This document shows, piece by piece, positions 37,031 through 44,830 of a stretch of DNA of 54,993 nt. The position numbers and the translations under genes were made by a program. Each line of letters opens with the position of its first letter. The first letter of the stretch is position 1. The DNA comes from a virus (taxonomy: Duplodnaviria; Heunggongvirae; Uroviricota; Caudoviricetes). A model generated the notes under the pieces. The model ran no database searches, had not been told where the DNA came from, and saw only the letters and a program-made list of their open reading frames with translations. The DNA lies in IMG/VR virus record IMGVR_UViG_2923302340_000009, positions 1 through 54,993 of that record, one strand, 5' to 3'.

Positions 37031-37550
37031 TCAGCAACCCCGGTATCAGTTCATCCAGCGCGGCTGCTTTGTTCATGGCTTTGATGATATCCCGTTTCAG
37101 GAAATCAACATGTCGGTTTTCCAGTTCCGGAAAACGCCGCTGCACCGACAGGGGGATCCCGTCGAGAATACTGGCAATTTCACCTGCGATCCGCGACAGC
37201 ACGAAAGTACAGAATGCAGTTTCCACCACTTCAGCGGAGTCTCTGGCATTTTTCAGCTCCTGTGCGTCGGCCTGCGCACGCGTAAGTCGATGGCGTTCGT
37301 ACTCAATAGTCCCTGGCTGGAGATCTGCCTCGCTGGCCTGTCGCAGTTCTTCAACCTCCCGGCGCAGCTTTTCGTTCTCAATTTCAGCATCCCTTTCGGC
37401 ATACCATTTTATGACGGCGGCAGAGTCATAAAGCACCTCATTACCCTTCCCACCGCCTCGCAGAACGGGCATTCCCTGCTCCTGCCAGTTCTGAATGGTA
37501 CGGATACTCGCGCCGAAAATGTCAGCCAGCTGCTTTTTGTTGACTTCCAT
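37005..37550 (-). CDS. Nu1: terminase small subunit Nu1
   Basis: 181 aa, MEVNKKQLADIFGASIRTIQNWQEQGMPV, matching lambda Nu1. Confidence 0.97.
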
Positions 37551-37790
37551 TGTTCATTCCACGGACAAAAACAGAGAAAGGAAACGACAGAGGCCAAAAA
37601 GCCCGTTTTCAGCACCTGTCGCTTCCTTTCTTTTCAGGGGGTATTTTAAATAAAAACATTAAGTTACGGCGAAGAAGAACGGAAACGCCTTAAACCGGAA
37701 AATTTTCATAAATAGCGAAAACCCGCGCGCCTTCCGCCCCGTAGCCTGCCGGATCGCCGGAAAGGACCCGCCAGCCATTCGGGTTTACTT
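37551..37790 (-). promoter_or_regulatory. prophage cos (cosB-cosN-cosQ); cosN 12-mer at 37728-37739
   Basis: The cosB and cosQ flanks match my recollection of lambda almost base for base. The coding-strand cosN reads GGGCGGAAGGCG instead of GGGCGGCGACCT. Confidence 0.85.
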
Positions 37791-38131
37791 CACAATGGGA
37801 TTTAATATCTGAACGACCAAAGTCGTGCGGCCACGGTCGCACAGACCTGAATACACGTCCTGTTTCTTCCACCCCCGCACAGGACTGGCGAGCATGAGGG
37901 ACAAACCCGCGAATCATAAACGCGGTAAAAACCCGGTGTGCATCGTTTTTGATTATTCCCGCACACTCGCGCAGAAGGAATTCCCCGTCGGGCTACGGTC
38001 ATGGTTAATGCGGGAATACGGCGACGATACAGCGCATAATGTGTCAGGCTTGAATACCTTTATCGAATCCCGGTAACGAATTCTCCTGACGTTCCAGTCA
38101 GGTGATGATATGCATGGTGAGATTCAGATAT

Positions 38132-38156
38132 GAAAAAGCCCCGCTAAAAGCGAGGC
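38132..38156 (-). terminator. rho-independent terminator after the post-Rz ORF
   Basis: The coding strand reads gcctcgc-tttta-gcggggc followed by ttttt. Confidence 0.65.
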
Positions 38157-38174
38157 CATAAATCACTTAATATC

Positions 38175-38549
38175 TTATTGAGGACGCTGGAGTAATCCGT
38201 GCTGAGCGAGAGTTAGAGCAATGTCATAAGACCCTTGCCTGTCTTTATAGCAAGTTTTATCAACTAGCTCAGCTTTGCTAATTCCGGGTAAATCAAGAAT
38301 CAGATTCGCAACTTCAATTGCCCTTTGGTACAACTTACCGATCTTTTTCTCCCCATGATGTGGTTTTACATTCTTCAGATAACCGCTATCCGCCAGAGCG
38401 AGAAACGTTGCCCTTGGGCATCCCTTCTTTCTTGCCGATTCGCTTTCTGTAACCTCAGCGACAGCAGCATCCCATGCATCACGCGGGGATATTGAATTAT
38501 CAGCAACCAAATAATAAGCAATTAAAGCGGCGCGCGCGTATTGAGACAT
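38175..38549 (-). CDS. hypothetical protein (moron between Rz and cos)
   Basis: 124 aa from the ATG at 38549 (MSQYARAALIAYYLVADNS...). It occupies the slot where lambda carries bor. No family recognised. Confidence 0.55.
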   Translation of the reverse strand: MSQYARAALIAYYLVADNSISPRDAWDAAVAEVTESESARKKGCPRATFLALADSGYLKNVKPHHGEKKIGKLYQRAIEVANLILDLPGISKAELVDKTCYKDRQGSYDIALTLAQHGLLQRPQ

Positions 38550-38587
38550 AATGCATCCATATACAAAAATCTTATGATAAGACTTTT

Positions 38588-39031
38588 CTAATATGAACAC
38601 TGTGATCTCACATACTCTTGCAGGCCATTCAATTGGTTAGTTATGGTTTCGATGCGCTCTCTGAGAACGAAATAATCCCGTTGAGCGGTGTCAGTAAGTC
38701 TGGGGCTGGAAGCATCATCCACGCCGGAGGCGGCGGTGGTTTTATGCATGTCGGGACAGACTGCTTTGACGTGCAGCCACTTACGACCAGCAGAAACATC
38801 AGCACGAAGACTTTCGATAGTCGCGTTAGCATCAGCAAGCTCCTTTGTATATCTGGCATCGAGTTCAGCTACATTACGTTGACGTTTCTGCATGTCAGCG
38901 ATAATGGATGCGGCCTTATCGCGCTGTTCTTTGTAGGCGATGGCGTTATCACGGTAATGATTAACAGCCCATGACAGGCAGGCGATGATACAAATAACCA
39001 GAGCGGAGATAATCGCAGTTACTCTGCTCAT
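38588..39031 (-). CDS. Rz: i-spanin Rz
   Basis: 147 aa with an N-terminal TM segment and a coiled coil. An Rz1 frame is embedded. Confidence 0.9.
38641..38832 (-). CDS. Rz1: o-spanin Rz1 (lipoprotein, embedded in Rz)
   Basis: [33 protein letters not shown] has a lipobox LVVSGC and a proline-rich region as in lambda Rz1. Confidence 0.85.
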
Positions 39032-39504
39032 ACCTCAATCTCACTGACCGTTCCGCCTGCTTCTTTGAATTTTGCAATCAGGCTGTCAACTTTATGCTCG
39101 AACTGACCATAACCAGCGCCCGGCAGTGAAGCCCAGATGTTGCTGCAACAGTCGATTGCCTGACGGATGTCACCGCGATCAATCATTAGTAAAGCACCAC
39201 GCTCCTTAATCTGCTGCAATGCAACAGCATCCTGGCTTTTAGGAGAGAAGTCTGTCAGCCCTAACTGCTTGCGGTAAGCATCCCACCAGCGTGAAAGAAG
39301 TTGATAACGGCCTGCGGCTGTTGATTTGAGTTTCGGGTTTAGCGTGACAAGTTTTCGAGGGTGATCGGAGTAATCAGTGAAGAGTTCGCCACCGACAATA
39401 ACGTCATAACCGCGGTTACGTGTCGGTTGTCGCCCGTTATCCGTTCCTTCTGACCACGCCAACATATCGAGGAAAGCTTTACGCTGAGGATTAAGATTTT
39501 GCAT
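39028..39504 (-). CDS. R: endolysin R (lambda-type lytic transglycosylase)
   Basis: 158 aa; [44 protein letters not shown] matches lambda R. Confidence 0.95.
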
Positions 39505-39808
39505 TTTTCACCCCTGTCAGTCGTTCCCAGAAGTACGTCAGTGCAACCGAGCCCATCGCACCACTAATCCCCGCTGTCGCGAGAATCATGTAAATACTGA
39601 ATCCACTTTCGATACTGATCAGGCCACCAATAACACCGGTGAATCCCGATACCACTATCTGAGCCAGAGCATTTATCCAGCTCCACGTTGCTTTACTTTG
39701 CTTCACATCTATCAGATAGCGGACCAGACCGCCCCAACCTGCGATGATCAGCAAAACGAGCCAGAACGCTCCGGCAAGGCTCTCTTTTTCGTGCATATGA
39801 ATAGCCAA
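39491..39808 (-). CDS. class I holin (three TM segments; not lambda-S-like)
   Basis: 105 aa with three hydrophobic helices and two closely spaced Met codons at the N-terminus (MAIHMHEKE). It lies directly upstream of R. Confidence 0.8.
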   Translation of the reverse strand: MAIHMHEKESLAGAFWLVLLIIAGWGGLVRYLIDVKQSKATWSWINALAQIVVSGFTGVIGGLISIESGFSIYMILATAGISGAMGSVALTYFWERLTGVKNAKS

Positions 39809-40025
39809 TGTTTCGCCGCCGACGAAAGGCCGGGACGCTAATGATTAAAAACTTACATGGGAAATATTGTTATAAACAGTCAACTCAAAAATAACTAAAA
39901 AATCTTATAACTACGCGAATGGCCTTCAAAAGCCGATCCGTGCAACTTGCATAAAACGATCTTTATCAATGAGTTACATGTGTGGTTAAATACCATGCTT
40001 TAAGGACTAAGAGCATTACCAGCAG

Positions 40026-40829
40026 ATGACAGAAAAAGATAACATTGGTAAGTTAATTTGGCATATTGCTTGCGATGAATCTGGCATTGATGGGCAACGT
40101 TTCTACGGCTTTGGCAGTCTGTGGATGAAGTACCAACGCCGTGGGGATTTCTGTCAACTAATCAGAGAACTACGCAGCAAACATGGTTTTTTTGAAGAAA
40201 TAAAATGGCAAAAAGCCCATTCAAAAAGATACTCTGAATTTTATCTTGAGCTGATCGACTTATTCTTTAGAGTTCCTTGGCTAGCTTTTCATTGTATCGT
40301 GGTTGAAAAATCAATAGTAAACAAGGCATTTCATAATGGGGATTATGACCTGGCAAGGAGAAAGCACTTCACAAATCTCATTACCACAAAAATTAGCTCT
40401 GTAATTTCTGCACACCCTGAAAGAGACAGTTACTTCAGGATTGAAGTTGATCCTATCGCATCTCGTTATAAAAAGGCCGATGAAGAACTAAATGTTATTG
40501 CCAATAACATATTGAATAGAAAATTTGGTCGTAAAGGGATAATCAGCAGTGTAGTGACAAAAGACTCTAAAGCATCTGAAAACATTCAGCTAGCCGATTT
40601 TTTCTTAGGTGCGGTTATGTGCGCATATCAAGGAAAAGCTTCATCTGAAGCCAAAATAAGAGTATCAAACTATGTTGCTTCATATTTAGGCTGGGATCAT
40701 TTGCAATATGATACATGGCACACTGAGAGAAAATTTAATATCTGGTATTTTTATGATAAAACTCGAGGGCCACGAGATATAGAAACTCAAAATGTTAGCT
40801 TAAAGTATCCACTTCCCCAAAAGAAATAG
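40026..40829 (+). CDS. DUF3800-like protein (orphan moron, antisense to the late operon)
   Basis: 267 aa, low GC. The motifs HIACDESGIDG, EIKWQKAHS and NIQLADFFLGAV resemble the DUF3800 signature. Family recalled from memory. Confidence 0.55.
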   Translation: MTEKDNIGKLIWHIACDESGIDGQRFYGFGSLWMKYQRRGDFCQLIRELRSKHGFFEEIKWQKAHSKRYSEFYLELIDLFFRVPWLAFHCIVVEKSIVNKAFHNGDYDLARRKHFTNLITTKISSVISAHPERDSYFRIEVDPIASRYKKADEELNVIANNILNRKFGRKGIISSVVTKDSKASENIQLADFFLGAVMCAYQGKASSEAKIRVSNYVASYLGWDHLQYDTWHTERKFNIWYFYDKTRGPRDIETQNVSLKYPLPQKK

Positions 40830-40948
40830 ACGTCGACCTCTCAGCCGACACGGTTGGAGTCCCAGACCAATTATCGAGTCGAAGTTACCAACTTGGCGGT
40901 TATCTTTTGGGAGCCGCCCCTTCATTCCCAAAACCTTTATTGCAGAAA

Positions 40949-40977
40949 AATCTATATCCTGGAAATTGGATAGTCAA
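40949..40977 (-). promoter_or_regulatory. late promoter PR' candidate
   Basis: The coding strand reads TTGACT, a 17-nt spacer, then TAGATT, ~75 bp downstream of the Q stop. Confidence 0.65.
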
Positions 40978-41050
40978 CCCTTACGACACCTACGAACAGT
41001 TGCACATACAACATTGGCAAAATATCAGATTTACACGGAATATATGCCTT

Positions 41051-41740
41051 TCAATCCAGTTTTGCAATACTTTGCTGTGAAAATGTCGTCTTTTGTTTTG
41101 AACGTGTTCTCGTTACAAGCAATAAAGCTTCGCTATCAAGCTGTAGAAAAATGTGCTTCATTGCAACCCAGCGTTCAGTAAATGTCTCAGACCAGTTTTT
41201 TGATGTCACTCCCACCAGTGATGCCAGCTCCTGGTATTCATAGGTCTTACGCCCTGCCAGCTCATTCTTCACATCCTGTGCCGCCAGCCAGATCAACTTC
41301 TTCAAACGTTCCAGTGTCTTACCTGCAATTTTCCTGGTACCCAACAGAGTCTTAAACTCGCTCCATACCCACTGCGTTATGGTGACCTGATGTTCCCAGC
41401 GAACACTTTCGCTGTAACTCCACAGCAACCACGCTTTCTGATGTTCTTCGAGAGACAGAACCGCGCGGCGCCATGAAGATGTTGAGAACTCAACCTGGCT
41501 GACCAGTGCAATGGATGAACCTTTTGCGTACGACTGCTTACCGGAAATCGGCGGATTATCCAGCGTAATCATCTTGCCCGTTACCTCATCCAGAATGCGC
41601 GGCTTCTTTCGTTTATATGTACCAGTATCAAATTGTGCATGCTCCAGCCAGGCTTCAAGCTGGCCTTTCGTTGCTCCGCTCAAATCAGCAGTAGCCACAA
41701 TGAGTTGCTCGCGGACATACTGTAAATATTGGGTATTCAT
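41051..41740 (-). CDS. Q: late antiterminator Q (DLP12 QuuD / phage-82-like type)
   Basis: 229 aa from the ATG at 41740 (MNTQYLQYVREQLI...) with an AGGAG RBS. It sits between rusA and the lysis genes. Confidence 0.8.
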   Translation of the reverse strand: MNTQYLQYVREQLIVATADLSGATKGQLEAWLEHAQFDTGTYKRKKPRILDEVTGKMITLDNPPISGKQSYAKGSSIALVSQVEFSTSSWRRAVLSLEEHQKAWLLWSYSESVRWEHQVTITQWVWSEFKTLLGTRKIAGKTLERLKKLIWLAAQDVKNELAGRKTYEYQELASLVGVTSKNWSETFTERWVAMKHIFLQLDSEALLLVTRTRSKQKTTFSQQSIAKLD

Positions 41741-41873
41741 GCGGCAGCTCCTTTCAGTGTTTTGGCGTAATTCTTCAGTATTCGGTAATCGGTCAAAACA
41801 GAACCGGGGAAACGATATAAGCGCAGACGCCACCAGCGGTGGCGAAGAAGTTCTGCCATATAAAACTCAAACA

Positions 41874-42236
41874 TCATTCATTCCCCATTTCGGTGATGGT
41901 CAGTTCCAGCCTCCCACCTTTGGTAACAGGCATCTTCACAACGCGGTAATCAACGACCTGAGCATCATCCAGCCAGAAACCTGCTTTGGTGAGTGCGTCA
42001 AAAGCGGCTTTTTGCAGATTATCCAGGTCACGGCGACGGCGATCCGGCATGTGGCACTCAATACGGATTTTCACTGGCATAGCCAAGCCGATATCCAGCA
42101 TTGCGTTTTTAATGATTCGGGCGACGTTATCACGGTATGCCTGCCCTTCTGCGCTGATGTGCGTGCGCCCGCGATTATGCCTGTAGTAGCGGTTATTGCT
42201 CGGCGGCCAGGGTAGTGTGATGTGGTAAGTATTCAC
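41874..42236 (-). CDS. rusA: Holliday-junction resolvase RusA
   Basis: A GTG start gives (V)[25 protein letters not shown]...[11 protein letters not shown], 120 aa, matching E. coli RusA. Confidence 0.93.
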
Positions 42237-42523
42237 GCCTTGATTACCCCCTCTTTCAGCCAGATAACCTGCGTTCTCGCCATACCTTCCAGCGCGCATT
42301 CTTTTGCGTACTCAGCATCGACAAAATGCGTGCGGCGGTCGATTTCGTCGTGACAGGCAGAACAGGCAATGGTGGCAATAAGGTCTGGCGGTTTGATACC
42401 GGTACCGCACAATCCAGCCAGCCGGATATGTGCCAGTACTGACGTTTCAGGATTGCCATTACATACGCCAGGGATTCTTACCTGGCATTCCCGACCACGC
42501 GCTGCTTTTCTCAAATCAGCCAT
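42233..42523 (-). CDS. ybcO: YbcO (DUF1364) protein
   Basis: [35 protein letters not shown]..., 96 aa, matching DLP12 YbcO. Confidence 0.9.
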
Positions 42524-42686
42524 GATTCCTCCTTGCTGCCAGTCGCAACCATTTTTTATCAACCAGGCTGGCGGTATACCCGAGCAGTGTTGGTATTTCG
42601 GATGGCTTCAGCTCAGGTTTACGCTTACGACGATTTGGTACTTTGTAGATGTGTCCGTTCATGACACGAATAAGCGGTGTAGCCAT
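42516..42686 (-). CDS. ninE: NinE
   Basis: 56-aa ORF below the track cutoff, translated by hand: [56 protein letters not shown]. The start overlaps the ybcN stop and the stop overlaps the ybcO start. Confidence 0.85.
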   Translation of the reverse strand: MATPLIRVMNGHIYKVPNRRKRKPELKPSEIPTLLGYTASLVDKKWLRLAARRNHG

Positions 42687-43141
42687 TACGCCTCCTGCTT
42701 GTCGCGCAGCAGCTGGAACTCGCAGCTCTGCGGAATAGTCAGGTGGCAGCCAATATTCATCGCCCAGGCTTCAACCTTACACAGGAAGACATACATCTCT
42801 CCGGTATCAAGATCGGAGGTATGGCGTAACGACTGGATAGTAGTGATTTCGCCGGTTACGACATCAACCAGGTCCTTGGTTTCATAACCGAGGTATGTGT
42901 GTTTGAGAGCATCTTTTACCCAAGCTGGAGTAGCAAACGTTTTACCCCTGCTGATGAGGTACTCACTAATTTCGCTGTACCACATGTGGCTAAGTGCATT
43001 CTGGGAAAGACTGCGTCTCTTGCGCCACGGTTTAAGCACCATGCGAAAGCATTTGCCTTCCTCCAGATAAGGCTGGATCTGCTGGCCGATAGCGGTGAAG
43101 TTGCCGCGATGTAATTTGATGCCGTCTTGTGAGAGGTTCAC
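42686..43141 (-). CDS. ybcN: YbcN (NinB-position DNA-binding protein)
   Basis: 151 aa, [38 protein letters not shown], matching DLP12 YbcN. Confidence 0.9.
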
Positions 43142-43328
43142 GCTTCACCTCCGCAGAGGTCAAACGCTAGATGCAAAGAATTGCAGGTGCATTTCTGCAT
43201 CTGTGAAGGGAGAAGAGAGTTTGGATTGTATGTGCGCATAAACGTCCCCGTTTAGCGCAGAAGTCACCGGAGTTGTTCAGGCTCCGATGACATGATTATG
43301 GCTAATAGCTTAGTTTTTATCAATTGTA

Positions 43329-44639
43329 CTATGGATTAGAGAGTGAATCTGGATGTGGTATTTCAGCCATGACCTCCTCTGCATCACAGTTGTCGATAAA
43401 AAAGTATAAAGTTGAGTCAACAATTTTTAAACGCCTGGTACCTTGATCATAATCGAATAATGGCGGAACGATATTCTGATTTGTTTGAAGTATAGGCAAT
43501 CGCTTCAGTGTCCCTGTTACATCAGAAGTTCTGACGTTATCAGGATGAGTATGTATTTCTTTAATAAGTTCCTGTAGAGTCTTTCTCTCAATCCCATCCT
43601 TGAGCTCAGAATAAGTTCTACTTAACAGAACTTGAACTAAATAATACTGAAGATACAAAGCCACAGCCTCTTCACTTGGCCTGCGACTTCGACTCCCTGC
43701 GGCAATTGACTCAAGACTACGGACATGTCTTGACGAATAATCTGCAACCTTAACGTCAATTGCTCTTTGTAGAACGGCCATATCACTCAAATAAACTACT
43801 TCTTGTTGGACCATTCGTATTCCTGACAATTCACAAAGTTGCTTAAGAAGCTCTTGCACTACTGCAACACTTCCATGGGCCTCTTCAAATATACGCTCTT
43901 TAATTTGCTCTGAAATAGATATATTTAAACACTGCTCGCCAACTGTAGCGATTCTTGAAAAGTCACCTTTATCCCATGGCTCAACAGGAACCTCAGCCAT
44001 ACGGTCCTGTAAGTCGCCATTAAACTGAATAAGACGATTATTTTCTCTCCATACTCCGAGTATGATAAATCTAATACCCATTTCTTCAAATGTACGAAGA
44101 TCAAATGCCAACTGTCCTTGAACTTCAACAGAGAGATAATGAAAGTTTTCGAGAACGAAGAACTTATCCTTCCCGCCAACATTAATCAATAATTCTCCTA
44201 CATCTTGTGCCGCCGTCAAGTTGAACTCAATCGGCCTAGATTTTGTTTCTGTATTTTTGGATATCGTCCCTTCAACCCCCGCCTCTACTTCAGTTTTTGC
44301 TAAAAATGGCAGGATGGCAGAAAAAGTGCTTTTTAAAGACGCTGAAGCCTCCTTAGAGTTACCTGTTGTTCTCTCGGTAATAATTTCCACTCCAAAGTGA
44401 CGTAAAAATGTACGATAGATATCTTCCGCAGAATTGGTGGGACCACAATGATATGTAACCCTGCTGTTTTCATCTAAATGGCGCTGAAGTAAGGCTGTTT
44501 TCCCTTGTTTTGATGAGCCATAAATCACGATCTGCTTCGTCGTTGCAAGTGCATCAGCAAGTGCCTGATCGACCTTTTCACGTTCAATATAGCTGGCTAC
44601 CGGATCTCTTGATACTCCGAATACATTATTTAGATGCAT
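43329..44639 (-). CDS. orphan P-loop ATPase (AAA/Arch-ATPase-like) with alpha-helical C-terminal half
   Basis: 436 aa. Walker A is GSSKQGKT and the Walker-B-like motif is FFVLENFHYL. It is low in GC and flanked by non-coding DNA on both sides. Confidence 0.7.
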   Translation of the reverse strand: MHLNNVFGVSRDPVASYIEREKVDQALADALATTKQIVIYGSSKQGKTALLQRHLDENSRVTYHCGPTNSAEDIYRTFLRHFGVEIITERTTGNSKEASASLKSTFSAILPFLAKTEVEAGVEGTISKNTETKSRPIEFNLTAAQDVGELLINVGGKDKFFVLENFHYLSVEVQGQLAFDLRTFEEMGIRFIILGVWRENNRLIQFNGDLQDRMAEVPVEPWDKGDFSRIATVGEQCLNISISEQIKERIFEEAHGSVAVVQELLKQLCELSGIRMVQQEVVYLSDMAVLQRAIDVKVADYSSRHVRSLESIAAGSRSRRPSEEAVALYLQYYLVQVLLSRTYSELKDGIERKTLQELIKEIHTHPDNVRTSDVTGTLKRLPILQTNQNIVPPLFDYDQGTRRLKIVDSTLYFFIDNCDAEEVMAEIPHPDSLSNP

Positions 44640-44830
44640 GGTTCATTTCCTTGTTATAAAAGAAAAATCTTAGCATATTAATACATTAATAACTTCCGCC
44701 CCTTGTTTAACTGTACAATTAATAGACTTTTATGCCTCCTACCCAATGACCGGAAGAATATCCGTAATACCTAGCCCCATTTATCACCTTGTCATGAGTT
44801 GAATCCGAGGTCCGTAGCCTCCCTAGCAAA

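What the first reader, a model, noticed from the sequence alone, without database searches (positions are those of the whole stretch)
40026..40977. Orphan DUF3800-like gene placed antisense between PR' and the holin
The Q-S interval, where lambdoid phages carry cargo such as toxins, holds a single low-GC gene on the opposite strand to the late operon. Its product has a DESG...KW...QLAD signature that I associate with DUF3800. The candidate PR' (TTGACT-17-TAGATT, 40949-40977) fires straight through it in antisense. It would therefore be expressed in the lysogen and silenced by convergent transcription once the prophage enters late development. That is the behaviour expected of a lysogen-protecting (defence or exclusion) moron.
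Basis: partly seen in the sequence, partly recalled or inferred. Interest (0 to 1): 0.5.

Follow-up and report, generated by a model that had tools for sequence, protein, structure and literature searches.

The report
DUF3800 nuclease gene with lambda-6S-like RNA

Summary
The ORF at 40026-40829(+) is real. It passes the Pfam DUF3800 test, carries the DE and QxxD motifs, has low GC and lies antisense between Q and the holin.

The Q protein is 97.8% identical to phage 82 Q. The 82-type PR' sits at 41067-41039, with +1 at 41032 and the +25 pause at 41008.

A 1.17-kb cassette (about 39841-41007) is inserted just after that pause site. It holds three things:
- a conserved promoter and the DUF3800 ORF;
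- a roughly 109-nt structured RNA (40935-40827, minus strand), convergent with the ORF;

Compensatory base changes support four of the RNA's five helices. The fifth, which would make a pseudoknot, is invariant and so untested. In protein-selected phage contigs the RNA follows this DUF3800 clade in 66 of 74 loci. These include lambdoid, P2-like and P4-like elements.

The same RNA, without DUF3800, forms +25 to +131 of the lambda PR' leader known as 6S RNA. Rfam has no matching family.

Best reading: a two-part RNA-nuclease module, probably toxin-antitoxin-like or defensive. No function has been shown.

The parts
39841..41007 (.). Inserted cassette of about 1.17 kb: DUF3800 gene, convergent small RNA and both promoters. 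In an 'empty-site' Q82 prophage about 225 nt occupy this position, including the tR' hairpin.
   Evidence: Comparison with E. coli 2018-06-4CC, which has the same Q type and the same holin with a 321-nt gap. Homology ends near 41007 and resumes near 39840. GC is 0.36-0.41 inside the cassette.
39963..39991 (+). Candidate promoter of the DUF3800 gene: TTATCA-17-TTAAAT with a TG extended -10. It lies in a conserved block at about 39952-40000 (AAAACGATCTTTATCAA...TGTGGTTAAAT).
   Evidence: This block is the only upstream stretch conserved across genera (80-88% over 33-49 nt in 8 loci from other organisms). The hexamers were read by eye and fall below the 9/12 threshold of the scan.
40026..40829 (+). 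DUF3800 protein, 267 aa, with an RNase H2-like fold.
40827..40935 (-). Structured small RNA homologous to the core of lambda 6S RNA. Helices:
- S1: 40933-40926 with 40912-40905
- S2 (proposed pseudoknot, GGCGG/CCGCC): 40918-40914 with 40899-40895
- S3: 40892-40888 with 40857-40853
- S4: 40880-40878 with 40867-40865
- S5: 40851-40843 with 40838-40830, closed by a GAGA loop
   Evidence: Covariance model gives 109 bits here. Pair counts: 93.5%, 92.8% and 92.5% of cells paired; covariation 0.259, 0.306 and 0.416 against about 0.11 in shuffles; 0 of 500 shuffles reach the observed value. There are 48 G.U against 4 A.C cells, and a GNRA loop in 16 of 16 sequences. Lambda 44612-44718 scores 68 bits, E=2e-15. 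S2 never varies, so covariation does not support it.
40949..40977 (-). Promoter of the small RNA, TTGACT-17-TAGATT. The inferred start is near 40942, about 9 nt before S1.
   Evidence: A sigma-70-like site lies upstream of the RNA in all 16 loci. The mean is 8.5 of 12 matches, against 5.1 in random windows. The -10 element ends 7-17 nt before S1 in 13 of 16. In L005, L008 and L064 the site lies downstream of the phage's own terminator.
40820..40851 (-). S5 hairpin followed by CUAUUUCUUUU. This is the candidate terminator of the small RNA, and the first terminator-like site downstream of PR'82.
   Evidence: Found by the terminator scan. A T-rich run follows S5 in 26 of 41 distinct DUF3800-linked RNAs and in 0 of 39 lambda-type RNAs. 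Caveat: the T run is the complement of the Lys codons at the end of the ORF.
41008..41067 (-). Phage-82-type late promoter PR' and its pause region. TTGCAA-17-TATATT lies at 41067-41039 with +1 at 41032. The pause region has an extended -10-like TGaTATTTT at +6 to +14, GCC at +15-17 and U at +25 (41008).
   Evidence: Found by the promoter scan. Q is 97.8% identical to phage 82 Q. The same promoter occurs in phage 434 and in the empty-site prophage. The features match the description of 82 pR' in PMC5001585.
41051..41740 (-). Antiterminator Q of the phage 82 type.
   Evidence: Pfam PF06323 at E=1.5e-94. tblastn gives 97.8% identity to phage 82 Q in record X92588.1.
39491..39808 (-). Holin, the first late gene downstream of the cassette.
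   Evidence: Pfam PF16083 at E=8e-22. Identical to WP_000544528.1 in related prophages.

Best explanation
The locus is a mobile two-part cassette inserted immediately after the +25 pause site of a phage-82-type late promoter.

The two parts:
- Part one is a DUF3800 protein with an RNase H2-like fold and intact acidic motifs. It is expressed from its own conserved promoter.
- Part two is a structured RNA of roughly 110-120 nt transcribed towards the gene from its own sigma-70 promoter. It ends in a GNRA-capped hairpin that abuts the stop codon.

How I think it works:
- The RNA is the cognate partner of the nuclease. It would bind and restrain or direct the protein, much as an RNA antitoxin does, and as RT-DNA is thought to do for the DUF3800 effector of type VII retrons.
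- Its complementarity to the 3' end of the mRNA may also damp expression.
- The pair would act as a toxin-antitoxin-like or abortive-infection module that benefits the lysogen.
- When the host prophage enters late development, Q-modified polymerase from PR'82 reads through the RNA gene and then antisense through the ORF. This would raise the RNA and lower the mRNA, so the module would be switched off for its own phage.

Shown:
- the anatomy and the fold;
- the RNA structure and its strand;
- the linkage between gene and RNA;
- the identity of PR';
- homology to lambda 6S RNA.

Inferred:
- transcription of either unit;
- RNA-protein binding;
- toxicity;
- defence.

My rough odds:
- anatomy, about 0.9;
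- RNA and protein being functional partners, about 0.6;
- a defensive or TA-like role, about 0.5;
- RNA acting as inhibitor, about 0.35.
For: Protein:
- Pfam DUF3800 above cut-off.
- AlphaFold model pLDDT 90.4.
- D17, E18, D142, D180, Q188 and D191 are invariant.

No protein partner: among 80 genomic loci, the only shared neighbours are ORFs overlapping the gene itself.

RNA:
- The roughly 105 nt after the stop codon are 74-94% identical across genera. In L005-L007, L009 and L010 that exceeds the protein identity.
- Covariation statistics support the structure.
- The strand is set by 48 G.U against 4 A.C cells and by GNRA loops.

Linkage:
- 17 genomic or phage loci carry the RNA, always adjacent to the gene and convergent with it.
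- 66 of 74 protein-selected IMG/VR loci carry it. At least five of the other eight end at the contig edge just after the gene.
- The set includes divergent pairs, such as Mannheimia phage PHL101 (48% protein identity; RNA 46 bits with R1 and 72 with R2).

Own promoter.

Contexts:
- the Q-holin interval of lambdoid prophages carrying three different Q families;
- a P2-like hotspot beside bSEFIR and PDC-S49;
- beside a P4-like primase;
- next to cI.

Precedents:
- DUF3800 genes associate with 11 other RNA motifs, in either orientation (PMC5737381).
- DUF3800 is the retron type VII partner (PMC7736814).
- TPR-DUF3800 proteins accompany Cas12a2 and Cas12a3.
Against: - There are no expression, binding, toxicity or phage-challenge data of any kind.
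- The same RNA core sits in lambda-type PR' leaders with no DUF3800 gene nearby (99 of 121 pattern hits). Its invariant nucleotides must therefore serve something that does not need a DUF3800 gene in cis. The RNA could instead be a generic late-leader element.
- Two enterobacterial relatives (L042, L052) and the marine and myxobacterial clades lack this RNA.
- The pseudoknot helix S2 is invariant, so it rests only on conserved complementarity and an RNAalifold prediction.
- The fold energy of the single sequence is ordinary (z=0.11).
- PADLOC files the protein under a multi-gene candidate whose second gene I could not identify.
- The U-run after S5 may simply reflect C-terminal Lys codons on the other strand.
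Confidence: 0.45

Rival explanations
1. Hitch-hiking leader. The RNA is a lambda-type late-leader element with its own function, for example binding a host factor such as Hfq. That function would have nothing to do with DUF3800. The DUF3800 moron once landed beside it, and the two now move together because they are adjacent. DUF3800 would act alone.
For: - Most copies of the RNA in phage contigs are plain PR' leaders, 106 nt after a lambda-type Q, with no DUF3800.
- The invariant core is the same in both settings.
- Lambda 6S RNA is reported to be Hfq-associated (bioRxiv 10.1101/2024.10.31.621285).
Against: - Linkage persists outside lambdoid phages, in P2-like and P4-like elements and next to cI. 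It also persists down to 48% protein identity.
- In these settings the RNA has a private promoter, even downstream of the phage's own tR'.
- Its geometry is fixed, with S5 abutting the stop codon.
- DUF3800 genes in general attract structured RNAs.
Confidence: 0.25
2. Pure cis-regulatory element. The RNA region serves only as an antisense regulator, terminator or insulator. It would stop incoming lytic transcription or pair with the 3' end of the mRNA, with no RNA-protein complex.
For: - The arrangement is convergent and no plus-strand terminator lies between the stop codon and the RNA gene, so the transcripts should overlap (sequence).
- S5 plus a T-run follows 26 of 41 distinct DUF3800-linked RNAs.
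- The scan picks this site out as a terminator.
Against: - A 105-nt RNA with five helices, invariant loops and compensatory changes is far more than a terminator or antisense function needs.
- In lambda the same core does not terminate: 6S RNA runs on to tR'. It is also antisense to nothing there.
Confidence: 0.15
3. A solitary DUF3800 defence moron is silenced in late development by a PR' at 40949-40977 that fires straight through it.
For: - The family and orientation are right.
- Late transcripts must cross the gene to reach the holin.
- The protein hits a PADLOC candidate.
Against: - PR' of this Q type is at 41067-41039, and its published pause features run to +25 at 41008.
- The 40977-40949 promoter belongs to the RNA and recurs in non-lambdoid contexts.
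- A hairpin plus U-run lies between that promoter and the ORF.
Confidence: 0.05
4. A helper for the phage, not a defence. DUF3800 is an RNA-processing or RNase H-type enzyme that acts on 6S-like leader RNAs, or on R-loops, for the benefit of the carrying element.
For: - The fold is RNase H2-like.
- Lambda 6S RNA is reported to be processed from about 194 nt to about 121 nt, mainly in the lytic cycle.
- The RNA and the enzyme are adjacent.
Against: - The gene is oriented against lytic transcription in every lambdoid context examined (window, L005, L008, L064, L011). In phage PHL101 it lies downstream of cI on the same strand.
- Lambda itself has the RNA but no DUF3800.
- Low GC and hotspot positions are typical of accessory cargo.
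Confidence: 0.1

Closest known systems
DUF3800-associated RNA motifs DUF3800-I to -XI (Weinberg et al. 2017, PMC5737381)
   Same: A conserved structured RNA is encoded next to a DUF3800 gene, on either strand and often with a terminator. No function is known for these either.
   Different: No Rfam family matches this RNA, even at E<=10. It would therefore be a further, twelfth structure. I could not confirm that all eleven motifs are in Rfam. Unlike those motifs, this one also occurs without DUF3800, as a phage late-leader RNA.
Phage lambda 6S RNA (the 194-nt PR'-tR' leader transcript)
   Same: The cores are homologous. Lambda 44612-44718, which is +25 to +131 of the transcript, scores 68 bits and E=2e-15 against the model built from DUF3800-linked copies. 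It has the same helices and invariant loops. It is made constitutively in lysogens.
   Different: In lambda the RNA is transcribed from the Q-responsive PR', continues to a separate tR', and has no DUF3800 neighbour. Here it has a private promoter with no room for a pause or Q-binding element. It usually ends at S5 and faces a DUF3800 ORF. The Q82-type leader native to this prophage lacks the motif.
Type VII retrons (RT + msr/msd + DUF3800; Mestre et al. 2020, PMC7736814)
   Same: A DUF3800 protein with an RNase H2-like fold is paired with a structured non-coding nucleic acid in a mobile, defence-associated locus.
   Different: There is no reverse transcriptase here and no conserved protein neighbour. 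The retron DUF3800 proteins lack the Q of QxxD, whereas this protein keeps it.
Type III toxin-antitoxin systems (ToxIN) and the phage decoy pseudo-ToxI (from my own knowledge)
   Same: The proposed logic is the same. A pseudoknotted RNA restrains a nuclease, the pair is carried on mobile elements, and a phage-borne copy of the RNA could act as an antidote.
   Different: The RNA here is single-copy rather than a processed repeat array. The arrangement is convergent rather than co-directional. The protein is RNase H-like, not of the ToxN fold. Nothing has been shown experimentally.
StxS, the short PR' transcript of Stx phages (Sy et al. 2020, PMC7547250)
   Same: It shows that a short, constitutively made RNA from the late-promoter region of a lambdoid prophage can have a function of its own in the lysogen.
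   Different: No sequence or structure relationship is claimed. StxS is an Hfq-dependent base-pairing sRNA. This RNA has a conserved tertiary-type architecture and a linked nuclease gene.

Membership tests
Pfam PF12686 (DUF3800) | Profile HMM score above the curated gathering threshold | tested here: met
   42.7 bits against a cut-off of 21, E=1.2e-10, covering profile positions 4-146 of 149.
Pfam PF12686 (DUF3800) | N-terminal DE motif and C-terminal QxxD motif | tested here: met
   D17-E18 and Q188-L-A-D191 are present and invariant in 33 homologues. The motif definition is as quoted in PMC7736814.
Pfam PF12686 (DUF3800) | RNase H-like (type 2) fold | tested here: met
PADLOC candidate system PDC-M04 | Protein A model hit | tested here: met
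   PDLC04353, E=7.7e-35, 118 bits, covering 6-227 of 232 profile positions.
PADLOC candidate system PDC-M04 | Presence of the other gene(s) of the multi-gene candidate | tested here: inconclusive
   No conserved protein neighbour in 80 loci. Small ORFs around the RNA hit nothing in PADLOC. The composition of PDC-M04 was not found in the literature library.
PADLOC candidate system PDC-M04 | Demonstrated anti-phage activity | not testable with these tools
   This needs a phage challenge. PDC systems are candidates only.
DUF3800-I to -XI RNA motifs (Rfam, e.g. RF02969 and RF02968) | Covariance-model match to one of the described motifs | tested here: not met
   No Rfam hit at E<=1 over 37500-43500. 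At E<=10 over 40790-41000 there was only a chance snoR135 match.
DUF3800-I to -XI RNA motifs (as a class) | A conserved structured RNA consistently encoded next to DUF3800 genes | tested here: met
   Adjacent and convergent in 17 loci and in 66 of 74 protein-selected loci. Covariation supports the structure.
Lambda 6S RNA (PR' leader) | Sequence and structure homology to lambda +25 to +131 | tested here: met
   Lambda 44612-44718 scores 68.4 bits, E=2e-15, with a model built only from DUF3800-linked copies. blastn linked the family to lambda.
Lambda 6S RNA (PR' leader) | Transcribed from the Q-responsive late promoter and terminated at a separate tR' | tested here: not met
   The RNA has its own promoter about 9 nt upstream, with no pause or Q-binding region. 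It ends at S5, and no separate tR' lies before the ORF. PR'82 lies 98 nt upstream and would read into it.
Phage 82 late promoter PR' | Adjacent to the Q82 gene, with an extended -10-like pause element, GCC at +15-17 and a pause at +25 ending in U | tested here: met
   Located at 41067-41008. Q is 97.8% identical to phage 82 Q. The sequence features were read and compared with PMC5001585. The element is conserved in phage 434 and in the empty-site prophage.
Type III toxin-antitoxin | Tandem-repeat RNA antitoxin upstream of, and co-directional with, a ToxN/CptN/TenpN-type endoribonuclease | tested here: not met
   The RNA is single-copy and convergent with the gene. The protein fold is RNase H2-like. 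Only the logic is proposed to be similar.
Type VII retron | A reverse transcriptase and msr/msd next to the DUF3800 gene | tested here: not met
   No conserved neighbouring protein. The flanking genes in the window are Q and the holin.

The most novel reading that the evidence does not exclude
The 6S-like RNA is the specific inhibitor (antidote) of DUF3800 nucleases. On this reading, lambda-type phages keep the same RNA under their constitutive PR' as a decoy that neutralises DUF3800-based abortive-infection modules carried by resident prophages. That would give lambda 6S RNA its first function, and it would define an RNA-nuclease immunity and counter-immunity pair.
Probability: 0.15. Interest if true: 0.9.

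Novelty: new variant of a known kind. Interest (0 to 1): 0.7.

Why it matters
DUF3800 is a widespread, uncharacterised RNase H-like domain. It recurs in retrons, in Cas12a2/a3 loci and next to eleven enigmatic RNA motifs. A compact E. coli example with a well-defined RNA partner is a tractable entry point to its function.

Separately, lambda 6S RNA was one of the first RNAs ever sequenced, and it still had no assigned function in papers from 2020 and 2024. This work shows that its core is a conserved structured RNA family. It also shows that a homologue is the constant neighbour of a nuclease gene. Together these turn an old open question into a set of simple experiments.

For annotation, it is also a warning. 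A good sigma-70 site between Q and S is not necessarily PR'.

Tried and rejected
- **Rfam scans** of the window region, the RNA alone, lambda 6S and eleven related loci found no family.
- **PDB sequence searches** with the protein and with the profile found nothing meaningful. Only the fold comparison was informative.
- **A conserved protein partner** was sought by clustering all ORFs within 4 kb in 80 loci. None was found.
- **PADLOC scan of small ORFs** overlapping the RNA found nothing.
- **Covariance-model search** of the marine, myxobacterial and other loci found no copy of this RNA.
- **A second conserved block** lies 3' of the marine clade's gene. It was seen by blastn and by eye, but the automatic alignment and fold gave no usable structure, so I do not claim it.
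- **Literature searches** for PDC-M04, PF12686 and drum/skipping-rope plus defence gave nothing relevant.
- **The plus strand** (sense to the ORF) was rejected as the functional strand of the RNA. It would have 84.5% pairing against 93.5%, 48 G.U pairs would become A.C mismatches, and the GNRA loops would be lost.
- **The S5 hairpin as the phage's tR'** was rejected as its origin. The hairpin is part of the conserved RNA in all contexts, although here it may do that job.
- **The RNA region as a protein-coding ORF** (the 43-aa ORF at 40800-40931, or lambda orf-64) was rejected. The variation is compensatory in stems, and there are 1-2-nt indels in the linkers.
Full report
**1. The observation**

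The late operon of this prophage runs on the minus strand: Q (41051-41833), holin (39491-39808), endolysin, Rz, then terminase.

Between Q and the holin lies one large ORF on the plus strand, 40026-40829, encoding 267 aa.
- It passes the Pfam DUF3800 threshold (42.7 bits against 21).
- It belongs to phrog_3732.
- RefSeq annotates it as 'DUF3800 domain-containing protein' in near-identical E. coli prophages.
Its D, E, K, W, Q and D residues are invariant in 33 homologues spanning 53-83% identity.
- GC drops to 0.36-0.41 across 39750-41250, against about 0.50 outside.

The string TTGACT-17-TAGATT is at 40977-40949 on the minus strand. What it means needed revision.

**2. Where PR' really is**

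The Q protein is 97.8% identical to phage 82 Q.

A second minus-strand promoter-like site, TTGCAA-17-TATATT, lies at 41067-41039 and overlaps the Q stop codon. The same promoter in the same place is found in phage 434, which has a Q82-like Q followed by an annotated terminator. It is also found in an E. coli prophage (strain 2018-06-4CC) that has this Q type and this holin but no DUF3800 gene.

Counting from the -10 element puts +1 at 41032. The transcript then begins AAAUCUGAUAUUUUGCCAAUGUUGU. It has an extended -10-like element (TGaTATTTT, +6 to +14), GCC at +15-17 and U at +25. These are the features described for the sigma-70-dependent pause of 82 pR' (PMC5001585).

Homology with the 'empty-site' prophage stops at about 41007, one base past +25, and resumes at about 39840, just before the holin. 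So a 1.17-kb cassette has replaced about 225 nt of the native leader. The lost stretch includes the terminator hairpin AAGCCC...GGGCTTTTCTGTTT.

**3. The cassette contains an RNA gene**

I collected 80 loci encoding relatives of the protein, one genome per species.

Clustering all neighbouring ORFs showed no conserved protein partner. The non-coding flanks, however, were informative.
- The roughly 105 nt immediately after the stop codon are 74-94% identical in loci from Pantoea, Xenorhabdus, Erwinia, Ewingella, Superficieibacter, Citrobacter, Silvania, Huaxiibacter and a P2-like coliphage. In L005-L007, L009 and L010 that exceeds the protein identity.
- A roughly 45-nt promoter-like block upstream of the ORF is also conserved.

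A covariance model built from twelve of these sequences finds the element in 17 loci. It is always directly 3' of the ORF and always on the opposite strand. The set includes divergent copies in Gilliamella and in Mannheimia phage PHL101, where the protein is only 48% identical.

**4. Structure and strand of the RNA**

The RNA has five helices.
- S1 varies widely with compensation: UUUUGGGA/UCCCAAAA, CACAAAG/CUUUGUG, GUAGUGAGA/CUUACUAC, GGUGAGA/UCUCACC, GUAACAAGG/CUUGUUAU and UUCAGG/CCUGAA.
- S3 covaries (GUUGG/CCAAC, GUGAG/CUCAC, GUUCG/CGAAC).
- S4 covaries (GAC/GUC, GGC/GCC, GUC/GAC).
- S5 covaries.

Pair counts on three alignments:

| Alignment (call) | Cells paired | Covariation score | Shuffled score | Shuffles reaching it |
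|---|---|---|---|---|
| A5 | 93.5% | 0.259 | about 0.11 | 0 of 500 |
| A6 | 92.8% | 0.306 | about 0.11 | 0 of 500 |
| A8 | 92.5% | 0.416 | about 0.11 | 0 of 500 |

Controls with slid partners stay at or below 0.105.

S2 (GGCGG in the S1 loop, pairing with CCGCC downstream) would make an H-type pseudoknot. RNAalifold predicts it. It persists in compact variants where the S1 loop is only GGCGGC. But its five core pairs never vary, so covariation cannot confirm it.

The functional strand is the one antisense to the ORF.
- There are 48 G.U cells against 4 A.C cells.
- Pairing is 93.5% on that strand, against 84.5% on the other.
- S5 is closed by a GNRA tetraloop (GAGA, GUGA or GGAA) in 16 of 16 sequences.
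- One S4 is closed by UUCG.

The minimum-free-energy fold of the single window sequence is unremarkable (z=0.11). The support is therefore comparative.

**5.

A sigma-70-like site lies upstream of the RNA in all 16 loci. The mean is 8.5 of 12 matches, against 5.1 in random windows. The -10 element ends 7-17 nt before S1 in 13 of them.

This holds in P2-like phages and other non-lambdoid settings. In three other lambdoid prophages the order on the late strand is Q, PR', an intrinsic terminator, this second promoter, and then the RNA. The promoter therefore belongs to the cassette.

In the window it would start transcription near 40942, giving an RNA of about 115 nt if S5 plus CUAUUUCUUUU terminates. 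A T-rich run follows S5 in 26 of 41 distinct DUF3800-linked RNAs. These T residues are also the complement of C-terminal Lys codons, so this point is suggestive only.

In the window no terminator lies between PR'82 and the RNA. Constitutive PR'82 transcripts should therefore also include the RNA, as a product of about 205 nt if S5 terminates. Some terminator must exist before the holin for the lysogen to be viable. S5 is the first candidate (inference).

**6. The twist: homology to lambda 6S RNA**

A 20-nt core of the RNA hits at least 120 IMG/VR contigs. Only 22 of the 121 matches lie in a locus with the DUF3800 gene, and there the RNA is always convergent and adjacent.

The rest carry a full-length copy scoring 65-83 bits. 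blastn identifies these as phage lambda 44612-44718 and its relatives HK446, HK630, mEp506, Kapi1, IME10 and Salmonella SI8.

In lambda this stretch is +25 to +131 of the 194-nt PR'-tR' transcript known as 6S RNA.
- 60 of 83 such copies lie 106 nt after a lambda-type Q gene.
- Most of the others follow a Q-sized ORF.
- The Q82-type leaders (empty site and phage 434) lack the motif. In the window it therefore arrived with the cassette.

Rfam has no family for it. [quoted passage not shown] A 2024 preprint (10.1101/2024.10.31.621285) says its role is still undetermined. It also reports that the RNA is made in both lysogenic and lytic states, is Hfq-associated, and is processed to about 121 nt mainly in the lytic cycle.

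**7. Is the RNA tied to the protein?**

I selected loci by protein rather than by RNA. Of 74 IMG/VR loci, 66 have the RNA in the standard position. At least five of the remaining eight end at the contig edge just after the gene. The linked set includes divergent, GC-rich variants (35-50 bits) that still keep all helices.

Contexts of the cassette:
- the Q-holin interval of lambdoid prophages with three unrelated Q families (PF06323, PF03589, PF06530);
- the gpA-proximal hotspot of P2-like prophages, beside bSEFIR (E=7e-101), a PDC-S49 KAP-NTPase or a PIN protein;
- next to a P4-type primase;
- next to cI.

Persistent linkage across such different backbones argues that gene and RNA form one unit. 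So do the private promoter and the fixed geometry. There is also a general precedent: DUF3800 genes attract structured RNAs (Weinberg 2017).

Two facts argue for caution. The same RNA lives without DUF3800 in lambda-type leaders. And some relatives of the protein lack it.

**8. The protein**

The AlphaFold model is confident (pLDDT 90.4, pTM 0.89). Its best structural matches are type 2 RNases H:
- RNase H3;
- then PIWI domains and endonuclease V.

This agrees with published modelling of DUF3800. The N-terminal CDESG resembles the DEAG motif of RNase HII, and KDSK...IQLAD resembles its D-S-x...A-S-I motif. Both resemblances are from my own knowledge and were not tested. No relative has a solved structure.

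**9. Mechanism proposed and its status**

Shown:
- the anatomy of the cassette;
- the true PR';
- the RNA family, its strand and its helices;
- linkage between RNA and gene;
- the fold of the protein;
- homology to lambda 6S RNA.

Inferred:
- Both units are transcribed in the lysogen.
- The RNA binds and restrains or directs the nuclease, as an antitoxin-like partner. Its overlap with the mRNA 3' end adds antisense control.
- The pair acts as a TA-like or abortive-infection module.
- Q82-dependent read-through raises the RNA and suppresses the mRNA during the prophage's own late development.

The most novel reading left open is that lambda-type phages carry the RNA as a decoy against DUF3800 nucleases. 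This would parallel pseudo-ToxI. I give it about 0.15.

**10. Verdict**

- The gene call and the family call are right but ordinary: the gene is already annotated and is a PADLOC candidate.
- The PR' assignment is wrong.
- The interesting content is the unannotated RNA and its two settings. It is the constant partner of a DUF3800 nuclease gene, and it is also the core of lambda 6S RNA.
- This is a new variant of a known kind, namely DUF3800 genes with associated structured RNAs. It has an unexpected link to a classic orphan RNA.

Interest: 0.7.

Noticed in passing
window 43329-44639 (-): A 436-aa AAA-type ATPase in a low-GC patch (about 0.40). It matches PADLOC candidate PDC-S59 strongly (E=1.5e-72) and lies just upstream of ninB. 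It looks like a second candidate defence moron in the same prophage.
   Followed up: no
window 38175-38600 (-): A DUF6979 gene (PF22399, E=3e-29; phrog_5039) lies directly after Rz, between the lysis cassette and the terminase genes.
   Followed up: no
L015, L016, L070 (Colwellia and relatives), L024, L025 (Ferrimonas), L020 (Psychromonas), L021, L023 (Vibrio): the roughly 95 nt after the DUF3800 stop codon: The marine sister clade of the protein lacks the 6S-like RNA. It shares a different conserved block in the same position (a long hairpin, then ATTTTAGCC...GCGTTA). It has no Rfam hit at gathering thresholds, and the automatic alignment and fold gave no usable structure. It may be another DUF3800-linked RNA.
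   Followed up: partly
L004, L282, L283 (E. coli strains ANT, T16R and SC516, next to trkG): Rac-like prophage remnants carry the cassette cut by IS1 at three different end points (after query bases 866, 657 and 217). Each cut removes the RNA together with the 3' part or all of the ORF. No listed copy keeps an intact ORF without the RNA.
   Followed up: partly
L207 (lambda 44612-44718) and about 80 IMG/VR loci (L087-L206): The core of lambda 6S RNA is a conserved, covarying structured RNA family found 106 nt after lambda-type Q genes. It is absent from Rfam. The annotated lambda orf-64 overlaps it.
   Followed up: yes
L168:5501-5613 (-): This lambda-type copy of the RNA has S1 and S5 of the leader type. 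It also carries the 10-nt S4 loop (UCGAUAAUUA) found in DUF3800-linked copies such as L005, which suggests recombination between the two kinds.
   Followed up: no
window 39952-39969 (+) and the same position in 10 other loci: The conserved block upstream of the DUF3800 promoter reads AAAACGATCTTTATCAA. It includes a GATC site next to the -35 element and a TTATCAAC-like string resembling a DnaA box. It may be an operator or a methylation-sensitive element.
   Followed up: no
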